From the NCBI GenBank assembly GCA_003336485.1, contig QENH01000201.1, positions 10,704 through 74,703 on the forward strand: a DNA stretch of 64,000 nt. Reading direction: 5' to 3'. A program made the translations under genes and the position numbers. Numbering within the stretch: the first letter of the stretch is position 1; every line of letters starts with the position of its first letter. Shown in pieces: positions 20,166 through 39,129 of the stretch. The notes below the pieces were generated by a model. The model was not told where the DNA came from. It was given only the letters and a program-made list of their open reading frames with translations, and made no database searches. Source of the stretch: Candidatus Methanophagales archaeon. GTDB lineage: Archaea; Halobacteriota; Syntropharchaeia; Alkanophagales; Methanospirareceae.

Positions 20166-22151
20166 ATGGATGATAACAAATATATAGGGCATTTTACGGA
20201 ACTCGTGGGATTGGAACGCGAGGAGCAGATGCGGCGGCATGAAGAGGAGATGCAGCGGCTGAGTGCTCGGGAACGGGAAGATAGAGGTAGAGCCTTTCTA
20301 AAGATGAGAGGGAAATCTCAGGACCTGGGACTGGGCGGAAAGCATATGGTGAAGTTTAGAAAACAAACTCAGGGTTCCTCATTACCGGAAAGCGAAATAG
20401 AAGTTGGAGATCTCGTACTGATAAGTAAAACAAGCCTGTGGGATGAGGACAACCCGCTGGGTACGGTAGCAGAGAAGACTTCGTATGCAATCACAATTGC
20501 ATTTGATAATGTGCCACCCAGTTTTGTATATCGAAAAGACCTCAGAATCGACCTTTTTGTTAATGACATTACCTTTCAAAGGATGCTCGAAGCGTTAAAG
20601 CAATTTAAAAGATTACCGCGTTGGCGTAAGGACAAACTACTCGGTAATACGACTCCTGAGTTCACTCATGCAGATGAACTAGAATTCTTTAATACGAAAT
20701 TGAACAAAAGCCAACAGGAAGCGGTTGTGAGAAGTTTAGCGGCACGTGACTTCTTCCTCATTCATGGACCGCCGGGAACGGGAAAGACGATAACCTGCGT
20801 TGAGGTCATAGCACAGCTTATTAAGCGTGGTAATAGGATAATAACTGCAGCGGACTCCAACGTGGCTGTGGATAACTTAGTGGAACGATTGGACAGGATA
20901 GGTGTGAACGTGGTACGAATCGGGCATCCGGCACGAATAATACCAGCATTGCGAAGAAGAAGCCTCGATTATCTCGTTCAAGACGAACCGGACTATCGAA
21001 AAGCGCAGGAGTTTCGGAAACGAGCATATGAGCTAAAAGAGCACATGAAACAGCATATCATGCCGGAAATGCGATGGAGACGCGGGTTAAGTGATGACGA
21101 GATAATGCTGCTTGCAAGTGAAGGGGCGACAACAAGGGGAATACCACAGAAGAAAATAGAGGGCATGAAGAAATGGCTTGATTTGAAACATGAACTAGAC
21201 AAGTTATTTGGTGATGCACGAGAACTGGAAGAGCGAGCAATAAGGCGAATTATAAAGGCTGCGACAGTAATTTGCGCAACTAACAGTACTGCGGGCTCAG
21301 AGATACTAAAAGCGGAAAAGTTCGATTTTGCCGTTATTGACGAGGCTACTCAGTCCACCGAACCTTCGGCGTTGATTGCCGTGCTAAAGGCGAAGCGGTT
21401 TATCATGGCTGGGGATCACAAGCAGCTACCACCTACTGTTTTGAACGAGGAGGCGGCATGCAGGAGTTTCACCAAGAGTCTTTTCGAGCGACTTCTGGCG
21501 CTACATGGTGATCGGATACGGGTTATGCTGGATGTGCAGTATAGAATGAACGAAGAGATAGCGGAATTCCCGAATCGAGAGTTCTATGATGGTAAGCTGA
21601 AAACAGAGGAACATATAAAACGGCGTACTCTTAGCGATATACTCCCGGAATCAGTAGATGAAGATAGTGAAGATGTAAAACCATTCTTGTTTATTGATAC
21701 GGGCGATGAGCTTGAGGAACGTGTACGAAGAGGTTCTACATCGAGAGAGAACCCAGGAGAGGCGCAATTGGTTAAGGATATTGCCGAACGACTGTTAAAC
21801 CAGGGTATAAGACCGGAAGATATAGCCGTTATCTCGCCTTATGATGACCAGGTAGCACAGATAAAAAGGATGCTCCGGGTGGAGGGCTTGGAGATAAAGA
21901 CGGTTGATGGGTTCCAGGGCCGGGAGAAGGAAGTAGTTATTGTGTCATTTGTGAGGAGTAACAAATCCGGCACTATTGGGTTCCTTAAGGATTTGAGGAG
22001 GCTTAATGTCTCCATAACGAGAGCGAAACGGAAGTTGGTTTTAATTGGTGATTCCAATACGCTGGAAAGCGAAGGGTGTTATAGACGGCTTGTTGCGTTG
22101 GCGAAGGAGACGGGAGCATATAAGAGTGCAGTCGCAACTAATACTGGGTAA
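20166..22151 (+). CDS. superfamily-1 helicase, Upf1/DNA2-like (AAA_11/AAA_12)
   Basis: 661 aa; Walker A GPPGTGKT, ICATNSTAGS, Walker B AVIDEATQ, motif V VDGFQGREKEVVIVSFVRSN, motif VI ITRAKRKLVLIGD. Confidence 0.85.
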   Translation: MDDNKYIGHFTELVGLEREEQMRRHEEEMQRLSAREREDRGRAFLKMRGKSQDLGLGGKHMVKFRKQTQGSSLPESEIEVGDLVLISKTSLWDEDNPLGTVAEKTSYAITIAFDNVPPSFVYRKDLRIDLFVNDITFQRMLEALKQFKRLPRWRKDKLLGNTTPEFTHADELEFFNTKLNKSQQEAVVRSLAARDFFLIHGPPGTGKTITCVEVIAQLIKRGNRIITAADSNVAVDNLVERLDRIGVNVVRIGHPARIIPALRRRSLDYLVQDEPDYRKAQEFRKRAYELKEHMKQHIMPEMRWRRGLSDDEIMLLASEGATTRGIPQKKIEGMKKWLDLKHELDKLFGDARELEERAIRRIIKAATVICATNSTAGSEILKAEKFDFAVIDEATQSTEPSALIAVLKAKRFIMAGDHKQLPPTVLNEEAACRSFTKSLFERLLALHGDRIRVMLDVQYRMNEEIAEFPNREFYDGKLKTEEHIKRRTLSDILPESVDEDSEDVKPFLFIDTGDELEERVRRGSTSRENPGEAQLVKDIAERLLNQGIRPEDIAVISPYDDQVAQIKRMLRVEGLEIKTVDGFQGREKEVVIVSFVRSNKSGTIGFLKDLRRLNVSITRAKRKLVLIGDSNTLESEGCYRRLVALAKETGAYKSAVATNTG

Positions 22152-22947
22152 GGCTCCCATCCACTTTTGCTCGCCTAACGGCGAACTTAAACGCCATAAT
22201 ACTTAGCGGTAGCATCACTATTGAAAACAATAGTAGAGCAATTATGTCTGGAGCTAAGGCTTCTAAAGAGTATCCTTGCAATAGCGCATGCCGCATAGCA
22301 TTTAATGCATATGTTATGGGCAAGAAGTAAGAGAAGTATTGAAGCCATTGTGGCAGAACAGATATTGGGTATAAGACACCACCGAGTAGGCCGGACAGAG
22401 CGCTAAAAGCCCAGTTTATCGGATCGCCTCGTTTGAGTACCATGATAAAAGATGCCGATATTATCCCTAGACTGCTGAAGCAAATAATAGTCAGAATAAG
22501 AACGAGTATAGCAGCAAAAATATTCGCATTGCCCATATCTACGGCGAACAGAAACACGCCTATCAACAGATAGGCAAGAACCTGAATAGAAGCAAAAATG
22601 AAGTCCCAGAGCGAAGAGAACAAGATTAATACTGAGGCCTTCGTTGGAGTCGCGAGCATTGCTTCCAAAGTGCCCATCATCTGCTCATTCCTGATGCTGC
22701 CTGAGAAGCTTCTCAGTCCGGTCGTCAGATAAGTTGAAAATGCTATGCCAATAAGAACGAAGGAGAAATAATCGCCGCCATAGGGTTCAAGATACGGTAC
22801 GGCTGCGGTTCCAAACATCTTATCAAGGAAATAGAAGGTCAATACCGAGAAAAAAATGCCGAATAGTTGTAATAGAAACGCAAAGCGATAGCTTGTTGCG
22901 ATTATAAAATCCCTTTTGATGAATGTCAGTGCCTTTTTCGTTATCAT
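22138..22947 (-). CDS. ABC-2 type transporter permease
   Basis: Six predicted TM segments, co-oriented just downstream of the ABC ATPase. ORF track starts at 23022, but the likely start is MITKKALTFIKRDF. Confidence 0.7.
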   Translation of the reverse strand: MITKKALTFIKRDFIIATSYRFAFLLQLFGIFFSVLTFYFLDKMFGTAAVPYLEPYGGDYFSFVLIGIAFSTYLTTGLRSFSGSIRNEQMMGTLEAMLATPTKASVLILFSSLWDFIFASIQVLAYLLIGVFLFAVDMGNANIFAAILVLILTIICFSSLGIISASFIMVLKRGDPINWAFSALSGLLGGVLYPISVLPQWLQYFSYFLPITYALNAMRHALLQGYSLEALAPDIIALLLFSIVMLPLSIMAFKFAVRRAKVDGSLTQY

Positions 22948-22990
22948 GCATCTCCTCCAGTTTCCTTTACTCATCCACTCATTCACCCAT

Positions 22991-23986
22991 TCACTCATAA
23001 ATAAGTTGAGAGAAAATATCATTGATAACTATTTCTTTAGTGCTACAAGCATGTATTTGACCGCCGGTATTAACAATCATTGCAATTATTCGTGGTAGGA
23101 CGGATTCTGTATTAGAAAGCTGAATATCTAAGGTGACTGCATCAGAAGATGCATGCGTTGAGAACTCAATAACGCCATTTAAATCACGCAATTGGTCAAG
23201 CACGCTATTAGAAAGGTTTTTCACTTTAATAGCGTATATCTCGCGCTTCTCTATCATATCTCTTAGTTCGTTTAGCGTTCCATAGGCTTTAAATGTACCT
23301 CTGTTGATTATTGCAATTCTATCGCATATTTGTTCCGCTTCCTCCAAGTGATGAGTGGAAAGAAAAACCGTCTTTCCTTGTTCCTTTACCAATCGCTCTT
23401 TGATAAACGCCCTTAAATTCTGTGCTGCACTTGGGTCCAAGCTTTTGGTTGGCTCGTCCATAAGCAGAATTTCAGGCTCGTTAAGCAAGCCCCTTGCGAT
23501 TGCCATTTTTTGTTTCATGCCTGTAGAATAGCTATAGAATTTATCATCCGCCTTGTCTTCCAAGCCAACGAAATTCAATACATCGTTTACCCGCTTTTGT
23601 GCTACGGAAGCGGAGGAGAAATTATGGAGTGAAGCGAAGAAGATCATATTTTGGCGGCCAGTAAGTCGCCAGTAAAAGCTTCGCTCTTCGCTTGCCACAA
23701 GACCTATGGATGCCTTTACCCCCTCTTCTTCTTTTGTGACTTCATAACCATTTACATATGCTGTGCCGCTGGTGGGTAAAACCAACGTGCATAATACCTT
23801 TATTAAGGTGGTCTTGCCTGCGCCGTTGGGGCCAAGGATACCGAACAAATCACCTCTTCTGATTTTCAGGTTTACATTATCTAATGCAATTACCTCTTTC
23901 TTCTTGAGCGGATGCAATAACCCACTGAATCCCCCTGGCGGTATGAACTTCTTTGTTAGATTAAATGTCTCAATGGCGTATTCCAT
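22991..23986 (-). CDS. ABC transporter ATP-binding protein
   Basis: 331 aa; Walker A GPNGAGKTT, signature YSTGMKQK, Walker B LLMDEPT, H-loop LSTHH. Confidence 0.9.
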   Translation of the reverse strand: MEYAIETFNLTKKFIPPGGFSGLLHPLKKKEVIALDNVNLKIRRGDLFGILGPNGAGKTTLIKVLCTLVLPTSGTAYVNGYEVTKEEEGVKASIGLVASEERSFYWRLTGRQNMIFFASLHNFSSASVAQKRVNDVLNFVGLEDKADDKFYSYSTGMKQKMAIARGLLNEPEILLMDEPTKSLDPSAAQNLRAFIKERLVKEQGKTVFLSTHHLEEAEQICDRIAIINRGTFKAYGTLNELRDMIEKREIYAIKVKNLSNSVLDQLRDLNGVIEFSTHASSDAVTLDIQLSNTESVLPRIIAMIVNTGGQIHACSTKEIVINDIFSQLIYE

Positions 23987-24044
23987 CTTCCCTCATCACG
24001 CTAATCCACGTAATTATTTAAGGACATATCCACATATAAAACTG

Positions 24045-25232
24045 ATGCTAAACTTGTCGCCAGAAGATACCGTTCTGTTATGCTGCACGAGAACGAGCAT
24101 GAATAAAACCACCATATATAAACTCAAAGAGGCTTTAAGTAGACGATTGAACTGGAATCATATCTTAGAAAATGCTCTGCAACATGGTATTGCACCCTTA
24201 TTATATCACAATTTAAGTGAGATGGCTGATGTGCCAGAAGAGGTTATGGAACATCTGCGAATGCAGTATAATGCGAATCTTGCTCGGAACATGTTAGTTT
24301 ACAATGAGCTGAGCAATGTTTTAAATGCGTTTGAACACGCAGGGATAGAGGTGGTTGTTCTAAAGGGTGCTGCGCTTGCAGAGACGGTTTATCAAGATAT
24401 AGGTTTGAGACCTTTTAGTGACGTTGACCTTTTGGTTAGAAAGAAGGATTTGCAGAGGGCAAAAAAGAAGCTGGTTGAGCTGGGCTATATATTGGATGAG
24501 GATGTCTCGCCGGAGAGGTATAACGAGGATTTCGGTTGTGATTTGTATTATGCCGGCAAAGTAAATGTCCTGGAGATTCACTGGGATATAATGCGGAAGA
24601 CTAAAAGTGACAGATATGCGAGGATCAAAATAGAACATATCTGGGAAAGAGCAGTACCAGCGAAGATAGCAGGTGCTGATACACGCATGATGTCGCCGGA
24701 AGATATGCTGTTACACTTTTGTGTGCACCTACCAAAGCATCGCTATAATCGGTTAATCTGGCTATGTGACGTTTTAGAAGTTATAGAGCATACAGATATT
24801 GATTGGGGATATGTGCTAGAGAGCGCCAAAAAATACCGGACAATGGCGTATATGTACTATGGTCTACATTTTACGGATGTGCTATTAGGTTGTGATATAC
24901 CCGAAAAGGTACTAAACGCGCTGAAGCCGCATCGGCCCGAGATAATGGTGCTGAGCACGGTATTAAAAGATGTCTTGTCGCGCGAGCGGAAGATAATGCC
25001 GATTCTCAATTTGATGAAGTTATTGCTGATAGATAGATTTCAGGATAGAGTGAGATATTTATGTGAATATGTATTCCCACCAGTGGACTCGTTAGCACGT
25101 ATGTATTCGGTTTCGGGAAAAAAGGTGTATCTTTATTATTTCGTGCATCCCGTCTACGTGTGGCTTGAGACAGGCAAGCGCCTTATGGCAATCGTCAGTT
25201 CGAGAGCAAAGAAGCGTTACCGGTGGTTCTGA
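24045..25232 (+). CDS. putative nucleotidyltransferase (NTP_transf_5-like, family often found in RiPP/lasso clusters)
   Basis: ~396 aa from the ATG at 24045. The ORF-track extension from 23763 overlaps the ABC gene and reads as nonsense. GAALAETVYQDIGLRPFSDVDLLV matches the G...R.xxDxDLLV nucleotidyltransferase signature; helical C-terminal domain. Confidence 0.5.
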   Translation: MLNLSPEDTVLLCCTRTSMNKTTIYKLKEALSRRLNWNHILENALQHGIAPLLYHNLSEMADVPEEVMEHLRMQYNANLARNMLVYNELSNVLNAFEHAGIEVVVLKGAALAETVYQDIGLRPFSDVDLLVRKKDLQRAKKKLVELGYILDEDVSPERYNEDFGCDLYYAGKVNVLEIHWDIMRKTKSDRYARIKIEHIWERAVPAKIAGADTRMMSPEDMLLHFCVHLPKHRYNRLIWLCDVLEVIEHTDIDWGYVLESAKKYRTMAYMYYGLHFTDVLLGCDIPEKVLNALKPHRPEIMVLSTVLKDVLSRERKIMPILNLMKLLLIDRFQDRVRYLCEYVFPPVDSLARMYSVSGKKVYLYYFVHPVYVWLETGKRLMAIVSSRAKKRYRWF

Positions 25233-25253
25233 GTTGGTGTACGGAGACCAAAT

Positions 25254-25766
25254 TTATGTTTTATATACGACGGTAAAAAAGAGTTTCATAATTCTCCTCG
25301 CAATCCGATTCCCGTGCTTGAGATAATAAACCGAGCACGAAAAGAACGTTAGCATGAGATTGATAAACATCCCAAATCCGTTATTTAGTCTGATTATTCT
25401 GGTTCCTTTTCGTATTGCAATGACCTTGCCAATAACGTGTTCAGAACGGACGATCTCAGCAGTCGTTGTATTATCACCTTTTTGAAGAAAAGATAAACTA
25501 TCATATTTGCGAATGACCCTATGAACGATGAATTTATCGAGATTTTTGAACACGATAATGTCTCCAACCCGGATTTCAGCGGGTTTAACTGATTGAACCA
25601 GCACCTTATCACCGATTTGTATTAAAGGAATCATACTTCCGGAAAGAACAGTGAGCCACAACTTCTGCTTTTGGTTATACAGATCTTCCCAGAGGCCAAT
25701 GATTGCGTTTTGTGATAATTTCGGCTCTTGATCTAAATTCCCGTTGTTGTTGGTATAGCTTTGCAT
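25254..25766 (-). CDS. signal peptidase I, archaeal/eukaryal Sec11-SPC18 type (S26B)
   Basis: 170 aa; box B LSGSMIPLIQIGD, box C/D GDIIVFKNLDKFIVHRVI (His-type), box E KGDNTTT, C-terminal TM. Confidence 0.75.
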   Translation of the reverse strand: MQSYTNNNGNLDQEPKLSQNAIIGLWEDLYNQKQKLWLTVLSGSMIPLIQIGDKVLVQSVKPAEIRVGDIIVFKNLDKFIVHRVIRKYDSLSFLQKGDNTTTAEIVRSEHVIGKVIAIRKGTRIIRLNNGFGMFINLMLTFFSCSVYYLKHGNRIARRIMKLFFTVVYKT

Positions 25767-25930: not shown

Positions 25931-28882
25931 TCATGGGTTTTTACGTATTTTTAATGGCCTACCTGATTGTGGAACACCAGTTACTACATGATGGTTGCCC
26001 ACAGCATCATCGTATTCCACTGTCCATTCTATCCCTTCGTTTGGATCCTGTGGATTGGTCATAGCCACCTCAAGCTCGAAGAAGTCATGACTCCAGGCAC
26101 CGCTACCTGCAGATATATCTCCCAATTCCACTTCACCATCAACGATGTTCACATTCGCAGGCGCATAGCTGATACTAGCAACTACGTTGTATGCGTCGCC
26201 GGGTCCGCAGTTCACAAAGTGAACGTCCATCCAGCTCCTGAAGAGGTCTGGTGACGGGTCCCATTCATAGCCTGGTATGTGGTATGCAGACCAGCGGTAT
26301 TTATCCGGACTAAGTTCTGGTTGTTGCACTTCGCGTACAATGATGTAATCCACCTTCGACTCCGTATCGCTGTCGCCATCCGCATCTGTTACCGTTAACG
26401 TTACCGTATAAGTCCCTTCTGTCGTGTACTCGTTCGTTGGGTTCTGATCCGTGCTTGTATCACCATCGCCAAAGTCCCAGTTCCAAGAGACTATGCAATC
26501 ATAGGAACGCGATAGATCAGTAAATTCAACGGTTAGAGGTGCGGATCCTGAAGTTGGTTCTGCATTGAAATCAGCAGTTGGCTCTGTATCTGTTACTGTC
26601 GCTGTCGTAGTATCAGGCTCTGAATCCTGATTACCGTCATTAACTACCAAAGTAACTGTATATGTCCCATCTTGTGTGTAATTATGACTTGGATTCACTC
26701 CTGTTCCGGTGTTCTCATCGCCGAAGTCCCAGTAGTAAGTTAGTGGCATGCCTTCCGGGTCATAAGAGCCAGAGCCACCAAATGCTATTGGAACGCCCTC
26801 AACGCCTGTGTAATTGCCATTTGCATCAGCTACTGGCGGTTGGTCTACGGATATCCCTTCATCTGTCGAATCTATAACATAGGGATGGTCAGAGATATCG
26901 CTAATAGGGACGTTATCTGCTAGAACAATGGTAGTATCTCTTGTTGAGACTCTAAGAACGAATGTAGCCGAGGGTTCCGGATCGGGTCCTGATTCTGGTA
27001 TCACAGTTATTCGATAAAACCCTATCTTTTTTTCTGTTAGTAATATTCTATCATCCAAATCGCCATCACCATCTATATCGGGTTCTATGTACATAGCACC
27101 TGGAATTTCATTTCCTTCTTTGTTTATGGTTAAATTATCGGGGTCCGTCAGAATTAACTCAATTGGATTGCAAATGCCGTCTATTTGCATCTGCCATTCA
27201 AAGGGTTCAATAGTAGCCGTGGTTGTGTTTACATCGTATGCTCCTTCATCGTCTGTTACGTTCAGTGAGACATTGTAAGTCCCATTTTTCAGGTATGTAT
27301 TCTCTGGGCTCTCGCCTGTTCCTGTGTTTCCATCGCCGAAGTCCCAGGCGAAGGAGGCAATGCTGCCGTCTAGGTCATAGGACCCGCTTCCGTTAAACAC
27401 TATCGGGTCTCCTTCCGTTCCGGTGTATGGTCCATTCGGGTCAGATACTGGCGGTATGTTCTCGCTCGTCACTGTTATATAATCCACCTTCGTCTCCGTA
27501 TCGCTGTCGCCATCCGCATCTGTTACCGTTAACGTTACCGTATAAGTCCCTTCTGTTGTGTACTCGTTCGTTGGGTTCTGATCCGTGCTCGTATTTCCAT
27601 CGCCAAAGTCCCAGTTCCATGTTGTAATACTATCGTATGATGTTGATTCATCTGTGAAGATAACTGTTAATGGCTTTAAGCCACTTGTCGGTGTAGCGGA
27701 GAAGTTTGCCGTTGGTTCGCTATCGTCAATCGTAGCCGTTGTTGTTTTCTCGTCGTATGCGCCTTCATCGTCTGTTACGTTCAGTGAGACAGTATAAATG
27801 CCGTCATCTACGTATATATTCATAGGATTCTCGCCTGTTCCTGTGTTTCCATCGCCGAAGTCCCAGGCATAGGTGGCAATGCTGCCGTCTAGGTCATAGG
27901 ACCCGCTTCCGTTAAACACTATCGGGTCTCCTTCCGTTCCGCTGTAAGGCCCATTCGGATCAGATACTGGCGGTATGTTCTGAGGTAGAGCGATAGTAAC
28001 AGCTCTAATTCTCTCGCTATTTGACCAGTCATCATCTATTGGAATACTTGCATTCACGATGATATTATACTCGCCAGGAGTAAGTGCACTTGTATTCCAG
28101 GAATCGCCGCCGCTCGGATAGAGATAATGACCCATCTTTATGGTCCATCTATGCGTAACTACTGTCTGAGTCCATGTTGAATTTGCAACTTTTACTGTTA
28201 CATCCACAGATTCATTATAATCCCCTTCATTCACAATTTTGTAGTAAATGCGATACGTGTTACCAATGGTCAAGTTCTCGCTTGCTGATATATCCGTTCC
28301 ATTATACTTGATTTTTATACCGTTCGTATCTGGCGCGTAATCCGTTGAGACGTTTATGTCATGAATCGGTACTGCATCACAGGAGAATATGCCGTCTATC
28401 GCAATACATGTATCGGGCGTTCCGGTTTGATCTGTACATGCAAGTCCTGTAAAGTTCAGATTCGAAACACCTACCGTAACAGGACTGAACGTCAACTTTG
28501 CGAGACAATATGTGCCTGCGGGTACACCACCACCCGAATACTGCAAGTCTACAAACGCTATCCTGTAGGTGTTAGGTGCACCTCCGGGTTTGTAGTTCCA
28601 GCTTTCAAGAGTAAATGCAGGACCTGTACCGGGTCCGGTGGTGTCACCACTGGTGATATTAACAATGGTTGAGTCAATAGTCAAGTCGGCGTTACAACTT
28701 TTAAATCCCGCATCAGTTGTGAAATTCAAGTTTACAATCACATCAGTACCAAGTGCCGAACTTCCGTGCTGTGGATCTAAGTAAAAGGTACCCGTCGCTG
28801 AGACCGCGTTAATGCAAACTGCTACTAGCAGTATACTTAATATCACTAAAATTTTATTGTTCATTTTTTTCTCTTTCACCAC
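25931..28882 (-). CDS. giant secreted scaffoldin-like protein: cohesin-like N-terminal domain, tandem PKD domains, conserved C-terminal module
   Basis: 983 aa; signal peptide. N-terminal ~140 aa align to the cohesin pattern of the pseudogene at 48131. At least five PKD domains (WDFGDGNT motifs). Last ~130 aa (YRWSAYHIPGYEWDP...VHFVN.GPG) are shared with gene 35631-37376. Likely ATG start at 28863. Confidence 0.7.
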   Translation of the reverse strand: MVKEKKMNNKILVILSILLVAVCINAVSATGTFYLDPQHGSSALGTDVIVNLNFTTDAGFKSCNADLTIDSTIVNITSGDTTGPGTGPAFTLESWNYKPGGAPNTYRIAFVDLQYSGGGVPAGTYCLAKLTFSPVTVGVSNLNFTGLACTDQTGTPDTCIAIDGIFSCDAVPIHDINVSTDYAPDTNGIKIKYNGTDISASENLTIGNTYRIYYKIVNEGDYNESVDVTVKVANSTWTQTVVTHRWTIKMGHYLYPSGGDSWNTSALTPGEYNIIVNASIPIDDDWSNSERIRAVTIALPQNIPPVSDPNGPYSGTEGDPIVFNGSGSYDLDGSIATYAWDFGDGNTGTGENPMNIYVDDGIYTVSLNVTDDEGAYDEKTTTATIDDSEPTANFSATPTSGLKPLTVIFTDESTSYDSITTWNWDFGDGNTSTDQNPTNEYTTEGTYTVTLTVTDADGDSDTETKVDYITVTSENIPPVSDPNGPYTGTEGDPIVFNGSGSYDLDGSIASFAWDFGDGNTGTGESPENTYLKNGTYNVSLNVTDDEGAYDVNTTTATIEPFEWQMQIDGICNPIELILTDPDNLTINKEGNEIPGAMYIEPDIDGDGDLDDRILLTEKKIGFYRITVIPESGPDPEPSATFVLRVSTRDTTIVLADNVPISDISDHPYVIDSTDEGISVDQPPVADANGNYTGVEGVPIAFGGSGSYDPEGMPLTYYWDFGDENTGTGVNPSHNYTQDGTYTVTLVVNDGNQDSEPDTTTATVTDTEPTADFNAEPTSGSAPLTVEFTDLSRSYDCIVSWNWDFGDGDTSTDQNPTNEYTTEGTYTVTLTVTDADGDSDTESKVDYIIVREVQQPELSPDKYRWSAYHIPGYEWDPSPDLFRSWMDVHFVNCGPGDAYNVVASISYAPANVNIVDGEVELGDISAGSGAWSHDFFELEVAMTNPQDPNEGIEWTVEYDDAVGNHHVVTGVPQSGRPLKIRKNP
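26335..26581. repeat. near-identical PKD-domain DNA repeat (partner 27460-27709)
   Basis: Encodes TADFNAEPTSG...WNWDFGDGDTSTDQNPTNEYTTEGTYTVTLTVTDADGDSDTE vs TANFSATPTSG..., with long identical nucleotide runs. Confidence 0.7.
27172..27451. repeat. near-identical PKD-domain DNA repeat (partner 27712-27985)
   Basis: Encodes PPVSDPNGPYTGTEGDPIVFNGSGSYDLDGSIASFAWDFGDGNTGTGE vs ...YSGTEG...SIATYAWDFGDGNTGTGE. Confidence 0.65.
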
Positions 28883-29400
28883 CTATTTTTATCTTTTGAT
28901 CCGTTGTTGCCACATCATGCGTACAATATCCTGCTTTAACAGCAACAACTTCATTCCAGCTTTTTTTCATAAATACCATGCTTTTTTCCTCCTTTTTTTC
29001 TTTGACTTTAACTTGAACATGAACAATTCAGAACAGAACCACTTACATAGTTATTCCAAATTGCTATAACGTCATTTGTATCTATAATGCCATTATCAAG
29101 TGCCGTGTCTGCTGCCCATTTGTTCTTTAAAGATATACCTGCAGTGTAACAATCCCAAACGGCTATAACATCCGTTGTGTCAACGCTACCATCTTCATTC
29201 GGATCTCCGCATATCCACTTCTTGGTCCTGAAGTTATTGCCCTCATTACTCTCACTCACCGTATTATTGCAATCTGCACATACTGTTATGTTATCCTCTA
29301 AAGGTGTATATACCCACATATAATCGAAACATCCAATATAACTCTCGTTATGTGATAACGCCTCAGTTACGCAATCGTATGCCACTTCAGTACCATCGAC
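28883..29400. repeat. cassette repeat: 5' leader of gene A plus the 3' CARDB-like/dockerin module of gene B (partner 32617-33150)
   Basis: Intergenic 28883-29007 vs 32617-32760 and coding 3' ends 29008-~29330 vs 32761-~33085 are >90% identical (the last ~110 aa of B and C are near-identical); identity decays further into the beta-helix region. Confidence 0.85.
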
Positions 29401-32400
29401 AAGCAGGGAAGTGTTATGCCCTGCCTGAGCGGTTCCAGTCCCTACGTTCGTTACGTTATAGCATATTGTGCAGTTTTCTGGCCAGCAGACCCATATACCC
29501 GTTATCTTCAGGTCCGGCAGCGATGTTGCTACTTCTACCAACGGATGCCAATCACCACCTTGCTTTATATTCCCAGAAGAATTATAAGGCCGCATTGTAT
29601 CTCCAAGTCCATCTTCATTGTTGTCAACGCCTATGTAATCGCCCCAATAGTTACCACCCAACCAAGAACCGCCGATTATGTTCTCGCCGGAAGTCGACGT
29701 GGTGTTCCATTCGTTGGTTCCATCATCATATGCGTTATTCGTATTGTCAAAGTAGTTGTTGTAGATGCTGTTATCGTCTGAAGATGTTAGATTGACGCCG
29801 ATGCCATTATTAGTTACGATGTTACCCGCGATCATAACGTTGTCAGAAACGTTCACCCAGATACCATCAGCATTATCGGTAATCATGTTCTCGCTGACAT
29901 TGACACCAGTAGGGAAACCCGCACCAACCGGTCTACTCCTCGGAGGTAGCATTGCCGAGCTATAATCTCCGTCCGGAAGTGCAAGAGCAGTTGGCTGCGC
30001 TGCTGCAACTCCCTCATTTTCGATCACCGGCATATCGTCATCGTCTGCCTCTATGCCACTTGCAAGACCAGCCATCGTACCAGAGCCAGAGACAGAATCG
30101 AGCATAAAACCGTAGTCACAGTTGTTAACTATGGTATTGCCATGAATTGCGACATTTGTGAAGGAAAACACTTTGATGCCATGAGCCTGATTTGATGCAG
30201 TGTTTTCTGCAATGTAGTTATCTGAGATAATGGCACCTGATCCCGCACCCATATAAATTCCGCATCCAAGAGTGTCGCTAACACCATTATTTATCATTGT
30301 ATTTCCCATAATCTTCAAGTTCGAGGGTCCATACGCAGCGAATATACCATGATAGAAGTTATTGGATGCCGTGTTATTGCAAATCGTAATGTTACTGGTT
30401 GGCGAGTGGTAAACAAAAATGCCATGATAGCCGTTGTTATTCGCATCGTTATCACAAATCGTGGCGTTGCTACTTTGGTATACTAGGATTCCATGTGCCT
30501 CACACTCCGAAGCAATGTTATTGATAACGGTGTTGTTAGAAGATGCGCTATAAAGATATATACCATACGCATTCTGCCTTGCAATGTTATCAGTCATTAT
30601 CGCATTATTGGATGCCCATGATAGAAGTCCTGTCCCGACATCGGTAAGATTGTTGTAATTAACATTGTTCCCCGAGACTACACTATTATCGGAATGATAC
30701 AGACGTATACCCTCCCAACCATTATGATTTGCTGTGTTGCCGACCAGATAGTTGTAATCGGAATAGGTGATACATATACCCATATATATCTCATTGAATC
30801 TTGCTGAATTGTTGATCACATGATTGTTATCGGATTTATATAAATAAATACCATACCAACAGTTCGAATCCGCGGTATTGTCAATAATGGTGTTGCTATC
30901 TGCGAAATATAAAGAAATACCCCTATGGTTCTGTGTGCAGTTGTTATTCGAAATGCGGCAGTGGCTCACGCCTTTATTAAGATAAATCCCTGCCTTACCC
31001 TCCGTAGCGCCTCCCCGTATGGTAAACCCACTGATATTGACATGACCCATATAGATATCAAAGACATGGTCAGCTATATCTGCTGCACTCACAATACAGT
31101 TTGCAGACCCATTTGCCGACCGGATTGTTAACTGTTCGAGGACATCTACATTCTCAGTGTAAGTCCCATCATGCACGATTATCGTATCGCCTGCATTTGC
31201 ATTACTTACCGCAGATTGTATCGGCGTTGCACTCGGATTAACAGGGTCGGGCTCAATCCACCAGCCAATTTCATTGACATAAATAGTACGCGGTGGAACT
31301 TCTGGTTTCGTAAGCGGCAGAAGATCTATGTTATTTGTCGTTAAAATATAAGGGTCATCACAGATCCCATCGCCATCTGTATCGGTGCACATCTCCGAGA
31401 ATCCGGTGCCGGACGGTGTTGCCCAATAGTTCCCTCCCAGATATGAACCGCCAACAATGTTTGTTTCCAATGTTTTGGGAATGTTCCAGTCGTTCGCATA
31501 GACAGTTGTACCAGCAAAATTGATGTTCTTCGCATTGCAGAAATAGTTGTTATGAATTAGATTTGCACCTGCAGCTTTTATGTTTATTCCCCCGTCAACA
31601 TTGTTTCTTATGTACGAGTTATTGATTATTGTAGATGAACTGCTGTCGACATAGACCCCCGCAAAACTGTTAGTGCCAGACGCAATGTGTGTTAACTTGT
31701 TGGATGGGCTATGAAAAAGATAGATGCCGCATTGAGAGTTAGAATTCGTTTCTGTACTTTCCAGTGTGTTGAAGGAACAGTAGCAAACATAAATGCCTTG
31801 GTGATGGTTGTTGTTGCATTTAATATTCTGCAACTTGTTTGTGTCGGCATTGTCGAGGAGGACGCCACAGAAATTATTGGATGATACAATATCCGTTAGA
31901 TTTGTGTTGTCTGTATAAAATAGACGCAAACCGTTGTTCTTCAAGCTGTCCGAGCCTCGGATTGTAATGTTATTCAGTACAGAGTTATCGGCATTGCAGA
32001 GGTACAGAGCAGAAAACACCTGATCTTGTAGATTTACCGATTGATTGTAAAACGCAATTGGTCTGCCTCCGGAACCAGTTACATTTATCAGACGGTTGTT
32101 GCACTCAGACAGTGAATTTGGTCGAAAATAGAAGTCATAATGTGAATTCTCCTGCAGAATACAATCGCGTATTGTGTTTGCAGTGCTATAAAAAATCGTG
32201 ATTCCAGCATCGCGATTGGAATATGCCGTTATATTTTGTATTGTGTTATTGGACGCTTTAAATAGTTCGATACCATAGCGGAAACCAGTAATTTCGCAGT
32301 TCTTTAACGTATTATCGTCTGAGTCGCTTGATAGATAGATTCCAAAACCGGAGAAGTCGCCATCTCCAGAGATTATATGACCTCCGCCGTTAAAAGTTAT

Positions 32401-32616
32401 GCCATCCTTGCCATTGAACTCGATGCAGGTGCCGTCATGACCGATTATGTCTGCAGTGAGCATAACCTCGTCACCATAGCTTGCACTCTGTATCTTCGTG
32501 TTGCAGTCTGAGCAGTTGACGCAGGTCGTCAACGCATTTACTGAGGGTACCAATACCAGCATAAAAATGACGAGTGCCAATGCCATTCCCAATTTTATCC
32601 GTTCTTCTCTTCCCAT
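29008..32616 (-). CDS. giant secreted parallel beta-helix protein with CARDB-like domain and C-terminal type-I dockerin
   Basis: 1202 aa; signal peptide; dozens of PbH1-like rungs; C-terminus [19 protein letters not shown]...[17 protein letters not shown] is two dockerin-type Ca-binding repeats; ends NCSCSS. Confidence 0.75.
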   Translation of the reverse strand: MGREERIKLGMALALVIFMLVLVPSVNALTTCVNCSDCNTKIQSASYGDEVMLTADIIGHDGTCIEFNGKDGITFNGGGHIISGDGDFSGFGIYLSSDSDDNTLKNCEITGFRYGIELFKASNNTIQNITAYSNRDAGITIFYSTANTIRDCILQENSHYDFYFRPNSLSECNNRLINVTGSGGRPIAFYNQSVNLQDQVFSALYLCNADNSVLNNITIRGSDSLKNNGLRLFYTDNTNLTDIVSSNNFCGVLLDNADTNKLQNIKCNNNHHQGIYVCYCSFNTLESTETNSNSQCGIYLFHSPSNKLTHIASGTNSFAGVYVDSSSSTIINNSYIRNNVDGGINIKAAGANLIHNNYFCNAKNINFAGTTVYANDWNIPKTLETNIVGGSYLGGNYWATPSGTGFSEMCTDTDGDGICDDPYILTTNNIDLLPLTKPEVPPRTIYVNEIGWWIEPDPVNPSATPIQSAVSNANAGDTIIVHDGTYTENVDVLEQLTIRSANGSANCIVSAADIADHVFDIYMGHVNISGFTIRGGATEGKAGIYLNKGVSHCRISNNNCTQNHRGISLYFADSNTIIDNTADSNCWYGIYLYKSDNNHVINNSARFNEIYMGICITYSDYNYLVGNTANHNGWEGIRLYHSDNSVVSGNNVNYNNLTDVGTGLLSWASNNAIMTDNIARQNAYGIYLYSASSNNTVINNIASECEAHGILVYQSSNATICDNDANNNGYHGIFVYHSPTSNITICNNTASNNFYHGIFAAYGPSNLKIMGNTMINNGVSDTLGCGIYMGAGSGAIISDNYIAENTASNQAHGIKVFSFTNVAIHGNTIVNNCDYGFMLDSVSGSGTMAGLASGIEADDDDMPVIENEGVAAAQPTALALPDGDYSSAMLPPRSRPVGAGFPTGVNVSENMITDNADGIWVNVSDNVMIAGNIVTNNGIGVNLTSSDDNSIYNNYFDNTNNAYDDGTNEWNTTSTSGENIIGGSWLGGNYWGDYIGVDNNEDGLGDTMRPYNSSGNIKQGGDWHPLVEVATSLPDLKITGIWVCWPENCTICYNVTNVGTGTAQAGHNTSLLVDGTEVAYDCVTEALSHNESYIGCFDYMWVYTPLEDNITVCADCNNTVSESNEGNNFRTKKWICGDPNEDGSVDTTDVIAVWDCYTAGISLKNKWAADTALDNGIIDTNDVIAIWNNYVSGSVLNCSCSS

Positions 32617-32760: not shown

Positions 32761-35472
32761 TTAACCTGAACATGAGCAATTCAGAACAGAACCACTTACA
32801 TAGTTATTCCAAATTGCTATAACGTCATTTGTATCTATCACGCCATTATCAAGTGCCGTGTCTGCAGCCCATTTGTTCTTTAAAGGGACGCCTGCAATGA
32901 AATAATCCCAAACGGCTATAACATCCGTTGTGTCAACGCTACCATCTTCATTCGGATCTCCGCATATCCACTTCTTGGTCCTGAAGTTATTGCCCTCATT
33001 ACTCTCACTCACAGTATTATTACAATCTGCGCATACGGTTATGTTATCCTCTAAAGGTGTGTACACCCACATATAATCGAAATATGCGATGTAGCTCTGG
33101 TTATGCTCAAGTGCTACAACTACACAATCGTATGCCCGCATAGTACCGTCAACAGATAGCGAAGTGTCATGCCCAGCCAGAGCGGTTCCAGTTCCTATGT
33201 TCGTTACGTTATAGCATATGGTGCAGTTATCGGGCCAGCAGACCCTTATGTCTGTTACCTTCAAGTCAGGCAGTAATACCGCTTCTTCCGTCAACGGATG
33301 CCTATCCCCTCCCGTTGTTATATTGCCCGACGAGTTATAAGGAAGCAGTGTATTTCCTAAGCCATCGCCATCGTTATCTACGCCCGCATAATCGGACCAA
33401 TAATTCCCGCCAAGATAATGACCGCCGATTATGTTCGTTCCCTCTCTTTTCGTAATGTTCCATGCGTTGTTGCCGTTATCATTAGCATTATTCGTGTTCT
33501 CGAAGTAGTTATTGTAAATCAGGTTATTGCCGCTCGAATCGTACAGGTAGATGCCAAATCCGTTGTTCGAGTTCGCAGTGTTGTCCGAGATGTTGTTGTA
33601 GTGCGACTCGGACAAGCCGATGCCAGCCCAGTTGCCCGATGCGGTAATATCGGAAACGTTGCTGTAATCAGCATAGCTGAGATAAATCCCTGCCTTAGCG
33701 TCTTCTGTTGCGCCCGTTACATGGAACCCGGATATATCCACATAATCCGCAGTCACCTCAAAGACATGATCATCAGAATCAGCAGCCTGAACAATTGTAT
33801 CCGCGTGATTACCTGATGTTGATCTTACGGTCAAAGACTTGTAAACAGCCACATTCTCTGTATAAGTCCCCGGATCTACAATAATTGTATGCCCATCCAA
33901 GGTATTGGGGTCATCTATTGCCGCTTGGATAGTTACGAAACTTTCGCTTGTGTTTATATTGTAAATCGGAGGTACTCTAGCCACTATTCTAGTACGTAGA
34001 CAAGCGTTCCAACCTTCGTCTGCCAGATCCGTCCACGAACCGCTATCAGTGTGCCTGATAAAGCTCACATTCGTCTGTATAGGAGGATCAACCACCCCTG
34101 AAAATTCACACTCAATAGGTATAGGGTGACCATAGCCCGGTGTGGTCATCTTAACGCCAACAGTAAATTGCTGACCAGCGTATATTGAAATCGAGTCGCT
34201 CAGTGGTATCGAGTAATAGCCAAACTCTTGACAGTTACCGATTTGATGCGCAAGCTCAGTACCAAAAAAGCCGTCCCAAATATATATTTCATACTGCGCA
34301 TTGTTGCTCGTGGTCCAGAAATCAACATGGGTTAAATCACCAAACTGAATTGCTGTATAGACACTTGCCATCCAAGCACTGTTGTCCCCATAGCCCACAG
34401 AAGCTACGAAGCCTGCCTCATCCCAGTAACGAAGTTCTTCATTCGGGTTGTCATCCGTATATTTAAGATATGCTATTTCATTGACACAACTTGAGTCATA
34501 AGCAAGATAGAAGAAACCATTATTCCCCCAACCTGTTCCCCAACTGTTTTTGGCTATCCAGGCTCCTATTCCTGCATGGCTGGGGTTGGGATGTGGAACA
34601 GCATCGTCCCAACCGATAATAGATACTAAGTGGTTAATGTTTCCAGAGCATGGATAGTTGTCGTAAATATACCCATAAGTCGAATTCCAGTATAGATAAC
34701 TTGGATCGTGCTGGTAAGCCACTATAACGGGTTCCTGATTATATACCGCATTTTTTATCGCGTCTATTTGTGACCCGTCATTCGTTACAAGTCTATATCC
34801 GTTAACTTTCTTAATTGGAGGGCAATCATCACATACACACGAGCCATCACAGTTCAATGCGTAGCCGCCGTAAGGATTGCATGTTTCCGAAACAGAACCT
34901 TTCCTGATAAAAACCTCGCTTGCAAGCCAACTCCAGCCACCTGCATTACAGGGGTCATCCGAGTCGTCATACATATAAACCCATGAACGGTCAACGCACA
35001 AGGCTACGCTCTGCTCAGAAAAATTGTATGCTGCTCCTTCATCCATTAGAACCGCCGATTCTAATACCGAGGTAGTGCCAAAAACCCAACAAGTCTCACA
35101 AGGGTCCTGGTCCTTGACCGTTGTCACCTTACCGTAATCGCGCCAGTCGAAGCTGCTGGGGAGTGCGTATGGCGCCGGCAACCCTTTAACTGGAAGCTGA
35201 TCCAGGTGACTTAAATCCACGGGTGGTGGAATATAGCCATAAAATGTCTCGGTTGGATTATCCCGATGTGCTTCAAAATCGGGATTTAGTGGAGCCAATT
35301 GAGGTTTTTCCGCTGCTCCGCCTCCATCTCGGCTATCGTCAGTAGCCGCGCTAATTCCAGCAGACAATGTTAGTGCACTTGTAACTACGGTCAGTATCAA
35401 TATTGCCGCTGTCAATATGGCTATTGGTTTTTTCATCGCATTCATATTCTCTACTATAAAACAATTGTGCAA
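32761..35472 (-). CDS. secreted papain-like (C1) cysteine peptidase fused to beta-helix, CARDB-like domain and C-terminal dockerin
   Basis: 903 aa; signal peptide/TM anchor; C1 active-site blocks [11 protein letters not shown] (Cys), [10 protein letters not shown] (His), [16 protein letters not shown] (Asn); C-terminal ~110 aa near-identical to gene B including the dockerin repeats. Confidence 0.75.
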
Positions 35473-37500: not shown

Positions 37501-37541
37501 CAAAAAAAAATAACGCCAAGGCGAGTGAACTCACGCCTCCT
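37501..37541 (-). terminator. hairpin + T9 terminator-like element immediately after the 46-aa ORF
   Basis: On the - strand: GGCGTGAGTTCACTCGCC then TTGGCGTTATTTTTTTTT, ~35 nt after the peptide stop codon. Confidence 0.5.
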
Positions 37542-37564: not shown

Positions 37565-37705
37565 TCATCCTTCATTTCCTCCGCCTCCACAGCATAGATT
37601 AAAAAATGGGTCCATCTGCGGAATAGGCCCTTCATATTGACCATAAGCTCCGATTTCGATCGTTTCTGACTTGACCTCAGGCTTATTGTATTCTTCTCGT
37701 TTCAT
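37565..37705 (-). CDS. 46-aa candidate RiPP precursor peptide (MKREEYNKPEVKSETIEIGAYGQYEGPIPQMDPFFNLCCGGGGNEG)
   Basis: Unannotated short ORF. Its ATG overlaps the last 23 nt of the rSAM/SPASM gene. A canonical Shine-Dalgarno AAGGAGGTGA sits 12 nt upstream. Stop is followed by a hairpin + T-run. C-terminal Cys-Cys-Gly4 core-like segment. Confidence 0.45.
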   Translation of the reverse strand: MKREEYNKPEVKSETIEIGAYGQYEGPIPQMDPFFNLCCGGGGNEG

Positions 37706-38822: not shown

Positions 38823-39129
38823 CTTCTGCTTCTGTTTCTGCTTCGGCGTTTCTAATCTGCAAAATCTTTTTCGCTACCAGTTGCTCTGCAAATTCCTGTA
38901 CATCTGCCTGTGCTACTTCAAGACTTACATCAAAACGCTCACAAGTCAGCGATATTATTTCTTTTATCCTTCTTGTACCATCGGCTAATTCCCAGATAGC
39001 ACTTCCTACCTTGTTAAGCGTGTGAATCGCACGCCCATCTGCAGTTAGAATAACGACTCCATCGCCTATCTCTCGCCATACTAATTCATCCGACCTACGT
39101 AGGTAGCTATCTAACGGAAACATATTCAC
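38803..39129 (-). CDS. PqqD-family protein (RiPP recognition element)
   Basis: 108 aa; PqqD pattern (VILTADGRAIHTLNKVGSAIWELADGTRRIKEIISLTCERFDVSLEVAQADVQEFAEQL); overlaps the upstream kinase (ATGA) and the downstream rSAM gene by 20 nt. Confidence 0.7.
   Translation of the reverse strand: MNMFPLDSYLRRSDELVWREIGDGVVILTADGRAIHTLNKVGSAIWELADGTRRIKEIISLTCERFDVSLEVAQADVQEFAEQLVAKKILQIRNAEAETEAEGGGDDR

What the first reader, a model, noticed from the sequence alone, without database searches (positions are those of the whole stretch)
22138..25766. ABC exporter + NTP_transf_5-like nucleotidyltransferase + signal peptidase on the far side of the surface-protein block: possible second half of the peptide-modification system
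Bacterial RiPP/lasso loci that carry HprK-like kinases frequently also carry a PF14907-type nucleotidyltransferase, a leader peptidase and an ABC exporter. Here those three functions lie 12 kb away, separated from the kinase/PqqD/rSAM operon only by the four giant surface-protein genes. The surface-protein block may have been inserted into, or be functionally coupled with, an ancestral contiguous cluster.
Basis: inference. Interest (0 to 1): 0.55.

Follow-up and report, generated by a model that had tools for sequence, protein, structure and literature searches.

The report
Split peptide-maturation cluster around surface-protein genes
The transporter, nucleotidyltransferase and peptidase genes are the missing half of a peptide-modification gene cluster conserved in archaea and bacteria, and in this methane-oxidising archaeon the two halves enclose surface-protein genes that carry an undescribed domain tied to the cluster.

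Summary
Window 22138-25766 encodes an ABC-2 permease, an ABC ATPase, a strong PF14907 nucleotidyltransferase (E 2e-64) and an archaeal-type S26 peptidase.

Homologues of the kinase, PqqD, rSAM, peptidase, NTase and ABC genes lie together within about 7 kb in ANME-1, ANME-2 and at least eight bacterial lineages. Where the peptidase or permease lies beside the NTase, the kinase does too, apart from truncated contigs and two loci.

I also found the unannotated 46-aa precursor gene (37565-37705, minus strand). It has a YxKPE leader and a Cys-rich C-terminus and is conserved in about 25 loci.

The surface-protein block is not random filler. The genes that follow the precursor share an undescribed ~125-aa C-terminal beta-sandwich domain. 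Searching metagenomes with that domain recovers the two cluster halves on either side of it.

The system fails the membership tests for lasso, SynChlorMet and HPr-rel systems, and I found no paper on it. It is best described as a new variant of radical-SAM RiPP cluster with phospho-tailoring enzymes. Its chemistry and the role of the surface proteins remain inferred.

The parts
22138..23022 (-). ABC-2 type exporter permease. The probable start is 22947, giving 269 aa as in homologues.
   Evidence: PF01061, E 1.9e-20. Orthologues sit next to the NTase in 26 of 88 sources.
22991..23986 (-). ABC exporter ATPase, DrrA-like, transcribed divergently from the NTase across a 58-bp spacer.
   Evidence: PF00005, E 7.6e-32, and PF13732. 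TIGR01188 scores 261.9 bits, below its cut-off of 312.
24045..25232 (+). PF14907 (NTP_transf_5) nucleotidyltransferase, 395 aa, the only cluster gene on the + strand.
   Evidence: E 2.3e-64. K107, G108, D126 and D128 are invariant in 27 homologues. This DxD corresponds to the residues whose mutation inactivated PsmN (PMC6993621).
25254..25766 (-). S26-family peptidase of the archaeal/ER type, without an N-terminal membrane anchor. Candidate leader peptidase.
   Evidence: TIGR02228 scores 72.8 bits, above its 51.85 cut-off, but matches model positions 33-121 only. The SM.P, HR[VIL] and KGD motifs are conserved in 14 cluster homologues, and none has an N-terminal hydrophobic segment.
25931..28882 (-). 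Surface protein w983: signal peptide, five PKD domains and a degenerate copy of the cluster-associated C-terminal domain (CTD, about 25934-26360) that lacks both Cys.
   Evidence: PKD_4, E 1.8e-98. CTD HMM, 2e-88.
29008..32616 (-). Surface protein w1202: NosD/beta-helix repeats, CARDB, and a tail ending NCSCSS that looks dockerin-like by eye. It has no CTD.
   Evidence: Its last 298 aa are 74% identical to w903.
32761..35472 (-). Surface protein w903: papain-family protease, lectin-like domain, NosD, CARDB, and the same tail as w1202. It has no CTD.
   Evidence: Peptidase_C1, E 7.8e-36.
35631..37376 (-). Surface protein w581: signal peptide, Big_1 domain and an intact CTD (35634-36005, LCPDEYRW...VPEFCAPS).
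   Evidence: The AF2 model of the CTD has pLDDT 94 and is all-beta.
37503..37534 (-). Terminator-like hairpin plus T9 run after the precursor gene. Paralogous copies follow w581 (35565-35590) and, more diverged, w983 (about 25858-25897).
37565..37705 (-). Unannotated precursor peptide gene, 46 aa: MKREEYNKPEVKSETIEIGAYGQYEGPIPQMDPFFNLCCGGGGNEG. It overlaps the rSAM stop codon.
   Evidence: It is conserved at the same position in about 25 loci, with HMM E-values from 4e-27 to 3e-9.
37683..38822 (-). Radical SAM/SPASM maturase.
   Evidence: PF04055, E 2e-24, and PF13186, E 7e-11. No NCBIfam equivalog passes its cut-off.
38803..39129 (-). PqqD-like peptide chaperone (RiPP recognition element).
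   Evidence: PF05402, E 1.1e-16.
39126..40004 (-). HprK-like / ScmC-family P-loop protein, a putative peptide kinase.
   Evidence: TIGR04249 ScmC scores 43 bits, below its cut-off. Orthologues carry the precomputed PF27840 ScmC annotation. The Walker A motif GPSESGKST is present and is conserved in the family.

Best explanation
Window 22138-40004 is one gene cluster for making, tailoring and exporting a small ribosomal peptide.

The far half (kinase-like ScmC protein, PqqD, rSAM/SPASM enzyme and the 46-aa precursor) would act as follows. PqqD binds the YxKPE leader. The rSAM enzyme cross-links the C-terminal Cys motif. The P-loop protein phosphorylates a hydroxyl.

The flagged half would finish the job. 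The PF14907 enzyme decorates the peptide, by analogy with PsmN, which adds hexose to a phosphoserine. The anchor-less S26 peptidase removes the leader. The ABC-2 pump exports the product.

What is shown: the gene content, the intact catalytic motifs, the precursor, and conserved co-localisation across two domains of life. What is inferred: each chemical step and their order.

In ANME-type versions, one to four secreted proteins are encoded between the precursor and the peptidase. They have variable adhesin or enzyme N-termini and a conserved C-terminal beta-sandwich domain. These are most likely extracellular partners of the exported peptide. The precedent is quinohemoprotein amine dehydrogenase, where an rSAM-cross-linked peptide is exported by a dedicated ABC pump and joins larger subunits (this comparison is from my own knowledge, not tested here).
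For: Gene identities.

Contiguous or near-contiguous clusters in archaea: L002, L003, L008, L010 and L012.

Compact seven-gene clusters in at least eight bacterial lineages, with a different gene order (D-R-X-K-S-N-A-P).

Co-occurrence counts among 80 species-level NTase loci:
- Kinase in 41, and kinase plus PqqD in 38.
- Peptidase together with kinase in 20 of 22.
- All six partner genes in 11.

Precursor evidence:
- The family is conserved directly after the rSAM gene.
- The one archaeal locus that lacks the rSAM gene (L003) has a Cys-less peptide.
- Bacterial precursors end in ...GS, and a C-terminal Ser is the proven target of lasso HprK-like kinases (PMC8498205).

Catalytic motifs are intact in the kinase, the NTase and the peptidase. 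PsmN precedent.

CTD coupling:
- The CTD is shared by the first gene after the precursor in the window, L002, L008 and L012.
- It also occurs in the Dehalococcoidales cluster L015, at a different position.
- CTD-seeded metagenome loci show K-D-R-X upstream and S-N-A-P downstream, for example L089, L091, L099, L100, L104 and L107.
Against: - No product has been observed, so every chemical step rests on analogy.
- Archaeal precursors have no conserved C-terminal Ser, so the kinase target is unknown.
- PsmN's membership of PF14907 was not checked by sequence here.
- L004-L006 carry ABC-NTase-peptidase with no kinase, PqqD or rSAM gene within 5-8 kb, so the halves can be separated.
- Anammox loci have K-R-D-N without peptidase or ABC genes.
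- The family HMMs were built iteratively from these same loci.
- Many metagenome loci come from related samples, so the counts are not independent.
- Only 12 of 20 CTD loci with upstream flank, and 11 of 27 with downstream flank, show cluster genes.
- The CTD fold gives no functional clue.
- The basic residues after the peptidase's C-terminal hydrophobic stretch leave its topology open.
Confidence: 0.75

Rival explanations
1. The peptidase is a dedicated Sec signal peptidase for the adjacent surface proteins, like SipW for TasA. The ABC-2 pump and NTase would serve surface-protein or glycan export. The flagged module would then be a surface-biogenesis unit that merely neighbours the rSAM operon.
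For: - All four neighbouring proteins have Sec-type signal peptides.
- The peptidase passes the archaeal signal peptidase I model and weakly matches SipW.
- It is co-directional with the surface genes and directly downstream of them.
- L004-L006 have the module beside a lipoprotein-like gene and no rSAM operon.
Against: - The same peptidase subfamily sits inside bacterial clusters that have no surface-protein gene.
- It lacks the N-terminal anchor of true signal peptidases in all 14 aligned members.
- L010 and L003 have the peptidase directly next to the precursor.
Confidence: 0.12
2. The C-terminal tails of the CTD surface proteins are themselves substrates of the rSAM, kinase and NTase machinery. 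These tails read ...FCAPS, ...FCGExCSxICP or ...INCP. On this view the small peptide would be an additional or decoy substrate, and the cluster would be a maturation system for surface proteins.
For: - Both the CTD tails and the precursors are Cys-rich and often end in Cys-Pro.
- CTD genes always follow the precursor in ANME-type clusters.
Against: - There is no covariation between tail type and precursor type.
- The CTD proteins have no YxKPE leader for PqqD to bind.
- They carry Sec signal peptides, which would remove them from cytoplasmic rSAM enzymes.
- The window's w983 CTD has lost both Cys.
- Bacterial clusters work without any CTD protein.
Confidence: 0.08
3. The two halves are unrelated, and their proximity in this window is coincidence or a MAG assembly artefact.
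For: - The halves are 12 kb apart.
- The NTase is on the opposite strand.
- Terminator-like elements separate the transcription units.
Against: The association recurs in dozens of independent assemblies from two domains of life, with rearranged gene orders.
Confidence: 0.03

Closest known systems
Phosphorylated and phosphoglycosylated lasso peptide clusters of Firmicutes (paeninodin pade, pseudomycoidin psm)
   Same: Both have an HprK-like kinase, a PqqD-type leader-binding protein, an 'uncharacterised nucleotidyltransferase' with a catalytic DxD, and an ABC exporter in one RiPP cluster. In those systems the kinase phosphorylates a C-terminal Ser and PsmN adds hexose onto the phosphate (PMC8498205, PMC6993621). 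The bacterial members of the present family have precursors ending in GS.
   Different: There is no lasso cyclase and no B2 protease here. The core enzyme is an rSAM/SPASM protein. The peptidase is S26-type. The transporter is ABC-2 type. The host is an archaeon, and the archaeal precursors lack a C-terminal Ser.
SynChlorMet (SCM) cassette of NCBIfam/TIGRFAMs (ScmC, ScmD, ScmE, ScmF)
   Same: Both combine a ScmC-family P-loop protein, a PqqD relative and an rSAM/SPASM enzyme. ScmC is the best NCBIfam hit of the kinase-like protein, and relatives carry the PF27840 ScmC annotation.
   Different: All four SCM models score far below their cut-offs: 43 against 125, 27.5 against 100, 115 against 400, and 86 against 400. 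Here there is one rSAM gene rather than two. The present cluster also carries the NTase, S26 peptidase and ABC-2 genes. Whether SCM cassettes have those genes was not checked.
Sactipeptide and ranthipeptide (SCIFF-like) rSAM/SPASM RiPPs
   Same: Both have an rSAM/SPASM maturase, a short precursor with a YxKP-type leader and C-terminal Cys residues, a peptidase and an ABC exporter.
   Different: The kinase and nucleotidyltransferase tailoring pair and the S26 peptidase are not features of those classes. No specific maturase model (PapB, AlbA, StsB, SkfB) passes its cut-off. The cross-link chemistry here is unknown.
Quinohemoprotein amine dehydrogenase maturation (QhpC, QhpD, QhpE, QhpF). This is an analogy from my own knowledge and was not tested here.
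   Same: In both cases the genes for the small peptide, a dedicated peptidase and an ABC exporter lie beside genes for secreted proteins. In QHNDH the peptide is rSAM-cross-linked, trimmed and exported, then assembles with the larger secreted subunits.
   Different: The peptidase family differs (subtilisin-like). There is no kinase or NTase. The partner proteins are unrelated. No enzymatic role is evident for the CTD proteins.
SipW with TasA/TapA (Bacillus biofilm operon)
   Same: Both place an ER/archaeal-type S26 peptidase next to the secreted surface or matrix proteins it could process.
   Different: The cluster peptidase lacks the N-terminal anchor. It scores 36 against 190 on the SipW model. 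It also occurs in clusters with no surface protein.

Membership tests
PF14907 NTP_transf_5 | Profile score above the Pfam gathering threshold | tested here: met
   217.8 bits against 31.2, E 2.3e-64, covering model positions 3-249 of 249.
PF14907 NTP_transf_5 | Pol-beta-type catalytic G...DxD motif | tested here: met
   K107, G108, D126 and D128 are invariant in 27 homologues. In PsmN, D134A/D136A inactivates the enzyme (PMC6993621).
Archaeal/ER-type signal peptidase I (TIGR02228, S26B) | Model score above the cut-off, with the Ser, His and Asp motifs | tested here: met
   72.8 bits against 51.85. SM.P, HR[VIL] and KGD are conserved in 14 cluster homologues.
Archaeal/ER-type signal peptidase I (TIGR02228, S26B) | N-terminal transmembrane anchor that places the active site outside the membrane | tested here: not met
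   The match covers model positions 33-121 of 158 only. No N-terminal hydrophobic segment appears in any of 29 cluster homologues by Kyte-Doolittle scan.
Lasso peptide cluster | Asn-synthetase-like lasso cyclase (PF00733) | tested here: not met
   Every gene in 22138-40004 is assigned to another family. tblastn with an Asn_synthase protein finds nothing in the window.
Lasso peptide cluster | Transglutaminase-like B/B2 leader protease | tested here: not met
   No such domain appears among the cluster genes. The only peptidases are the S26 enzyme and a secreted papain-like domain.
Lasso peptide cluster | PqqD-like RRE | tested here: met
   PF05402, E 1.1e-16. The lasso_PqqD models score below their cut-offs.
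SynChlorMet cassette | ScmC, ScmD, ScmE and ScmF equivalog scores above their cut-offs, with two rSAM genes | tested here: not met
   Scores are 43.3 against 125, 27.5 against 100, 114.8 against 400, and 85.8 against 400. There is a single rSAM gene.
HPr-rel-A / HprK-related kinase B systems | TIGR04352 or TIGR04355 above their cut-offs | tested here: not met
   17.0 and 17.5 bits against 200. The bacterial orthologue scores 38 bits.
rSAM/SPASM-modified RiPP (sacti/ranthipeptide-like) | Radical SAM CxxxCxxC core plus a SPASM domain | tested here: met
   PF04055, E 2e-24, and PF13186, E 7e-11. The motif CNLKCRHC is present.
rSAM/SPASM-modified RiPP (sacti/ranthipeptide-like) | Adjacent short precursor with a leader and a Cys-containing core | tested here: met
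   The 46-aa ORF at 37565-37705 is conserved in about 25 loci. Its Cys residues are lost where the rSAM gene is absent.
rSAM/SPASM-modified RiPP (sacti/ranthipeptide-like) | Cys-derived thioether (or other) cross-link in the product | not testable with these tools
   This needs mass spectrometry or NMR of the product.
ABC-2 (DrrAB-type) exporter | ABC2_membrane permease plus a DrrA-like ATPase and no binding protein | tested here: met
   PF01061, PF00005 and PF13732. The TIGR01188 subfamily score is 261.9, below its 312.45 cut-off.

The most novel reading that the evidence does not exclude
The exported, cross-linked and phospho-decorated peptide may not be a free antibiotic-like RiPP. It could instead be a matured ligand or subunit that docks onto, or is covalently joined to, an undescribed beta-sandwich domain at the C-terminus of interchangeable surface adhesins and enzymes of ANME archaea. 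That would make this a peptide-dependent system for arming or organising the cell surface of syntrophic methane oxidisers.
Probability: 0.3. Interest if true: 0.8.

Novelty: new variant of a known kind. Interest (0 to 1): 0.62.

Why it matters
It defines the full extent (about 18 kb, 13 genes) and the precursor of an uncharacterised peptide-maturation system. The system is shared by uncultured methane-oxidising archaea and many anaerobic bacteria.

It extends the kinase plus PF14907 tailoring pair, so far studied only in Firmicutes lasso peptides, to radical-SAM peptides and to archaea.

It gives the poorly understood PF14907 family a second, testable context. It also identifies a new domain family (376 representatives at 50% identity) that links a RiPP-like pathway to cell-surface proteins.

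ANME surface proteins are candidates for the cell-cell contact needed in syntrophic consortia. A peptide system wired to them would therefore be worth testing experimentally.

Tried and rejected
- **Exact-sequence look-up of the window NTase** found nothing, because the public gene model starts 18 codons later.
- **Literature.** Searches for SynChlorMet, ScmC with radical SAM, HPr kinase with radical SAM, PqqD and RiPP, and HPr kinase with SPASM returned no paper. PF14907 returned two and ranthipeptide with kinase and nucleotidyltransferase returned one, but I read none of the three. Subscription journals are not covered.
- **Word-indexed homologue search with the CTD** found only 4 proteins. 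The exhaustive HMMER search was needed.
- **Fold search of the CTD model** gave only generic Ig-like sandwiches, with TM-scores of 0.5 or less: TRAP subunits, adaptin ears and ApaG. No function can be read from it.
- **Covariation between precursor C-termini and CTD tail types.** I looked for it and found none.
- **The sigma-70 promoter scan** is not meaningful for an archaeon and found fewer sites than the shuffles.
- **Lasso identity** was rejected because there is no cyclase or B protease.
- **SCM, GeoRSP, HPr-rel-A/B, mycofactocin, AhbD and PapB identities** were rejected on curated cut-offs.
- **A conserved [AVT]-[YH]-G motif** before the core of the archaeal precursors could be an S26-type cleavage site. 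The bacterial precursors show no consistent equivalent, so I do not rely on it.
Full report
**1. What is at the coordinates**

ORF listing and profile searches confirm the four genes.
- The ABC-2 permease is at 22138-23022 on the minus strand (PF01061, E 1.9e-20). Its likely start is 22947, which gives the 269 aa of its homologues.
- The DrrA-like ABC ATPase is at 22991-23986 on the minus strand (PF00005, E 7.6e-32).
- The nucleotidyltransferase is on the plus strand and matches PF14907 end to end (E 2.3e-64, 217.8 bits against a cut-off of 31.2).
- The S24/S26 peptidase is at 25254-25766 on the minus strand. It passes NCBIfam's archaeal signal peptidase I model (72.8 bits against 51.85).

The mechanical NTase ORF starts at a GTG inside the ATPase gene. 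The conserved N-terminus of 395-aa homologues places the real start at 24045.

The window comes from a Methanophagales (ANME-1) archaeon.

**2. The rest of the locus**

Everything from 40004 down to 25254 is on the minus strand. In order:
- an HprK/ScmC-like P-loop protein (39126-40004)
- PqqD (38803-39129)
- an rSAM/SPASM enzyme (37683-38822)
- four signal-peptide-bearing surface proteins: 581 aa with a Big_1 domain; 903 aa with a papain-like protease, a lectin-like domain and NosD; 1202 aa with NosD/beta-helix repeats; and 983 aa with five PKD domains
- the peptidase

The NTase converges on the peptidase and diverges from the ABC genes. An enolase gene and a helicase gene bound the cluster.

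**3. A missed precursor gene**

A 46-aa ORF overlaps the rSAM stop codon (37565-37705, minus strand). It reads MKREEYNKPEVKSETIEIGAYGQYEGPIPQMDPFFNLCCGGGGNEG.

Homologous peptides lie at the same position in about 25 other loci. The consensus is YxKPEIRSEEIExGxYGxY...QP[WF]FGLC(C|PPC)x.

In L003, the one archaeal relative that lacks the rSAM gene, the leader is kept but the core has no Cys. That is what one expects if the rSAM enzyme acts on those Cys residues.

**4.

Neighbourhoods of NTase homologues were read from metagenome contigs and from 80 species-level genome loci. All six-frame ORFs were searched with HMMs iterated from the window proteins.

Archaeal loci:
- L010 has ABC ATPase (cut at the contig end)-NTase-peptidase-precursor-rSAM-PqqD-kinase with nothing inserted.
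- L003 has permease-ATPase-NTase-peptidase-precursor-PqqD-kinase.
- L002 and L012 (ANME-2) have one inserted gene; L008 (ANME-1) has one plus a 170-aa ORF. The window has four.

Bacterial loci from Dehalococcoidales, Aminicenantes, Desulfobacterota, Nitrospinae, Omnitrophota and Pseudomonadota carry the same seven genes. They are packed into 5-7 kb in the order PqqD-rSAM-precursor-kinase-peptidase-NTase-ABC.

Counts over the 80 genome loci:

| Feature within 10 kb of the NTase | Loci |
|---|---|
| Kinase | 41 |
| Kinase and PqqD | 38 |
| Peptidase | 22 |
| Peptidase and kinase | 20 |
| Permease | 19 |
| All six partner genes | 11 |

The five permease loci without a kinase are all contigs cut within 600 bp of the NTase.

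Exceptions exist. L004-L006 have ABC-NTase-peptidase without the other half nearby. Anammox planctomycetes have kinase-rSAM-PqqD-NTase without the peptidase or ABC genes. The halves are therefore modules that usually, but not always, travel together.

**5. The surface-protein block is coupled, not random**

The gene after the precursor in the window (w581), in L002, in L008 and in L012 has a different N-terminal architecture each time. All four share a ~125-aa C-terminal domain, LCPDEYRW...EYDDAAGxHHVIENVPxFC..., at 50-70% identity. The window's last surface gene (w983) has a degenerate copy without the Cys residues.

Pfam does not cover this domain. An exhaustive HMMER search found 376 representatives at E of 0.001 or better, 99 of them at 1e-30 or better. 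In nearly all of the 150 listed hits the domain is C-terminal.

Its AlphaFold model is a confident all-beta sandwich (pLDDT 94). It has only generic structural neighbours, with TM-scores of 0.5 or less.

I then ran the reciprocal test. Metagenome loci retrieved with the domain alone show kinase-PqqD-rSAM-precursor immediately upstream. They show peptidase-NTase-ABC immediately downstream of one to three CTD genes. Examples are L089, L091, L099, L100, L104 and L107.

Overall, 12 of 20 loci with upstream flank and 11 of 27 with downstream flank show cluster genes. Many of the misses are distant CTDs (51% identity or less) or loci where further surface genes fill the flank. These samples overlap in origin, so the counts are not independent.

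The Dehalococcoidales cluster L015 has an archaeal-type precursor. It carries a CTD gene at a different place, after the permease. This argues for functional rather than purely historical linkage.

The two middle genes of the window (w903 and w1202) lack the CTD. They share a CARDB plus dockerin-like tail at 74% identity, and their 3' flank differs from the others. The precursor, w581 and w983 are each followed by copies of one terminator-like element. The w903/w1202 pair therefore looks like a secondary insertion between two CTD genes.

**6. Enzyme details**

- **Kinase-like family.** It keeps an HprK-type Walker A motif, GxSxxGK[ST], in all but the Methanoperedens members.
- **NTase family.** It has invariant K107, G108, D126 and D128. 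In PsmN, the only studied nucleotidyltransferase of this kind of context, D134A/D136A abolishes addition of hexose to phosphorylated pseudomycoidin.
- **Peptidase subfamily.** It keeps the Ser, His and Asp motifs of archaeal/ER-type S26 enzymes but has no N-terminal anchor. The TIGR02228 match begins at model position 33. This fits a leader peptidase better than a Sec signal peptidase, although its topology is not settled.
- **Bacterial precursors.** They end in ...GS, matching the C-terminal-Ser specificity shown for lasso HprK-like kinases. Archaeal precursors do not, so the acceptor residue there is unknown.

**7. Comparison with known systems**

The kinase, PqqD, NTase and ABC combination is documented in Firmicutes lasso clusters. 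Here, however, there is no cyclase or B protease.

The nearest curated system is the SynChlorMet cassette, but all of its models, and those of HPr-rel-A/B, GeoRSP, PapB, AlbA and others, score far below their cut-offs.

No paper on this cluster was found in the searchable library.

I therefore classify it as a new variant of rSAM/SPASM RiPP cluster with phospho-tailoring. It has a lineage-specific link to surface proteins through a new domain.

**8. Verdict**

- That the flagged genes belong to the same system as the rSAM operon: about 0.9.
- The proposed division of labour (tailoring, leader removal, export): about 0.5-0.6.
- A docking or subunit role for the surface-protein domain: about 0.3.

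Noticed in passing
window 37503-37534, 35565-35590 and about 25858-25897 (minus strand): One terminator-like hairpin plus T-run element (GTGAGTTCAYTCGCC..GGCGTTATTTTTT) follows the precursor gene and w581. A diverged copy follows w983. The two exact-core copies compare with 0.17 expected by chance.
   Followed up: partly
window 29008-35472 (minus strand): w903 and w1202 share a 298-aa C-terminal block at 74% identity (CARDB plus a tail with two dockerin-like repeats ending NCSCS[SG]) and similar 3' flanks. Pfam did not call a dockerin, and residues 1-300 of w983 have no Pfam hit. The pair looks like a recent duplication inserted between the two CTD genes.
   Followed up: partly
L003:11826-11957 and L003:12014-13157: This is a cluster variant without the rSAM gene, and its peptide keeps the leader but has no Cys. 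About 2 kb of L003 (13157-15321) has no called gene.
   Followed up: no
L007/L013 (Candidatus Methanoperedens): This reduced variant has NTase, a PMT-like glycosyltransferase, the peptidase, a ScmC-like protein without a Walker A motif, PqqD and a 29-aa ORF. It has no ABC genes and no rSAM gene.
   Followed up: no
L058:12763-13648: Three tandem precursor genes with near-identical leaders and different cores lie in one bacterial cluster.
   Followed up: no
L014, L016, L017, L019, L020, L031 (anammox Planctomycetes and a deltaproteobacterium): These loci have compact kinase-rSAM-PqqD-NTase cassettes without the peptidase or the ABC-2 permease (L031 has an ABC-ATPase hit 3.6 kb away). This looks like a separate sub-architecture of the same enzyme set.
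   Followed up: no
L004-L006:6290-6907: A 205-aa lipoprotein-like gene (lipobox LAAGC) sits between the NTase and the peptidase in loci that lack the kinase, PqqD and rSAM half.
   Followed up: no
P0121 (CTD protein from a metagenome): Here the CTD is followed by a Pro/Thr linker, a hydrophobic helix and an RRRR tail, which resembles an archaeal C-terminal sorting or anchor signal. Some CTD proteins are therefore probably membrane-anchored.
   Followed up: no
L001:6624-7595: In the 76%-identical ANME-1 relative, an Asn_synthase-family gene (323 aa) lies next to the ABC permease. The window has no counterpart, so the gene is probably unrelated to the cluster.
   Followed up: partly
L043:142-1945 and L054:5254-7104: Bacterial clusters are preceded by a PEP-CTERM-system-like ATPase homologue (TIGR03015, 212 bits, below its cut-off) and a NosR-like response-regulator homologue. 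These may be regulatory or secretion accessories.
   Followed up: no
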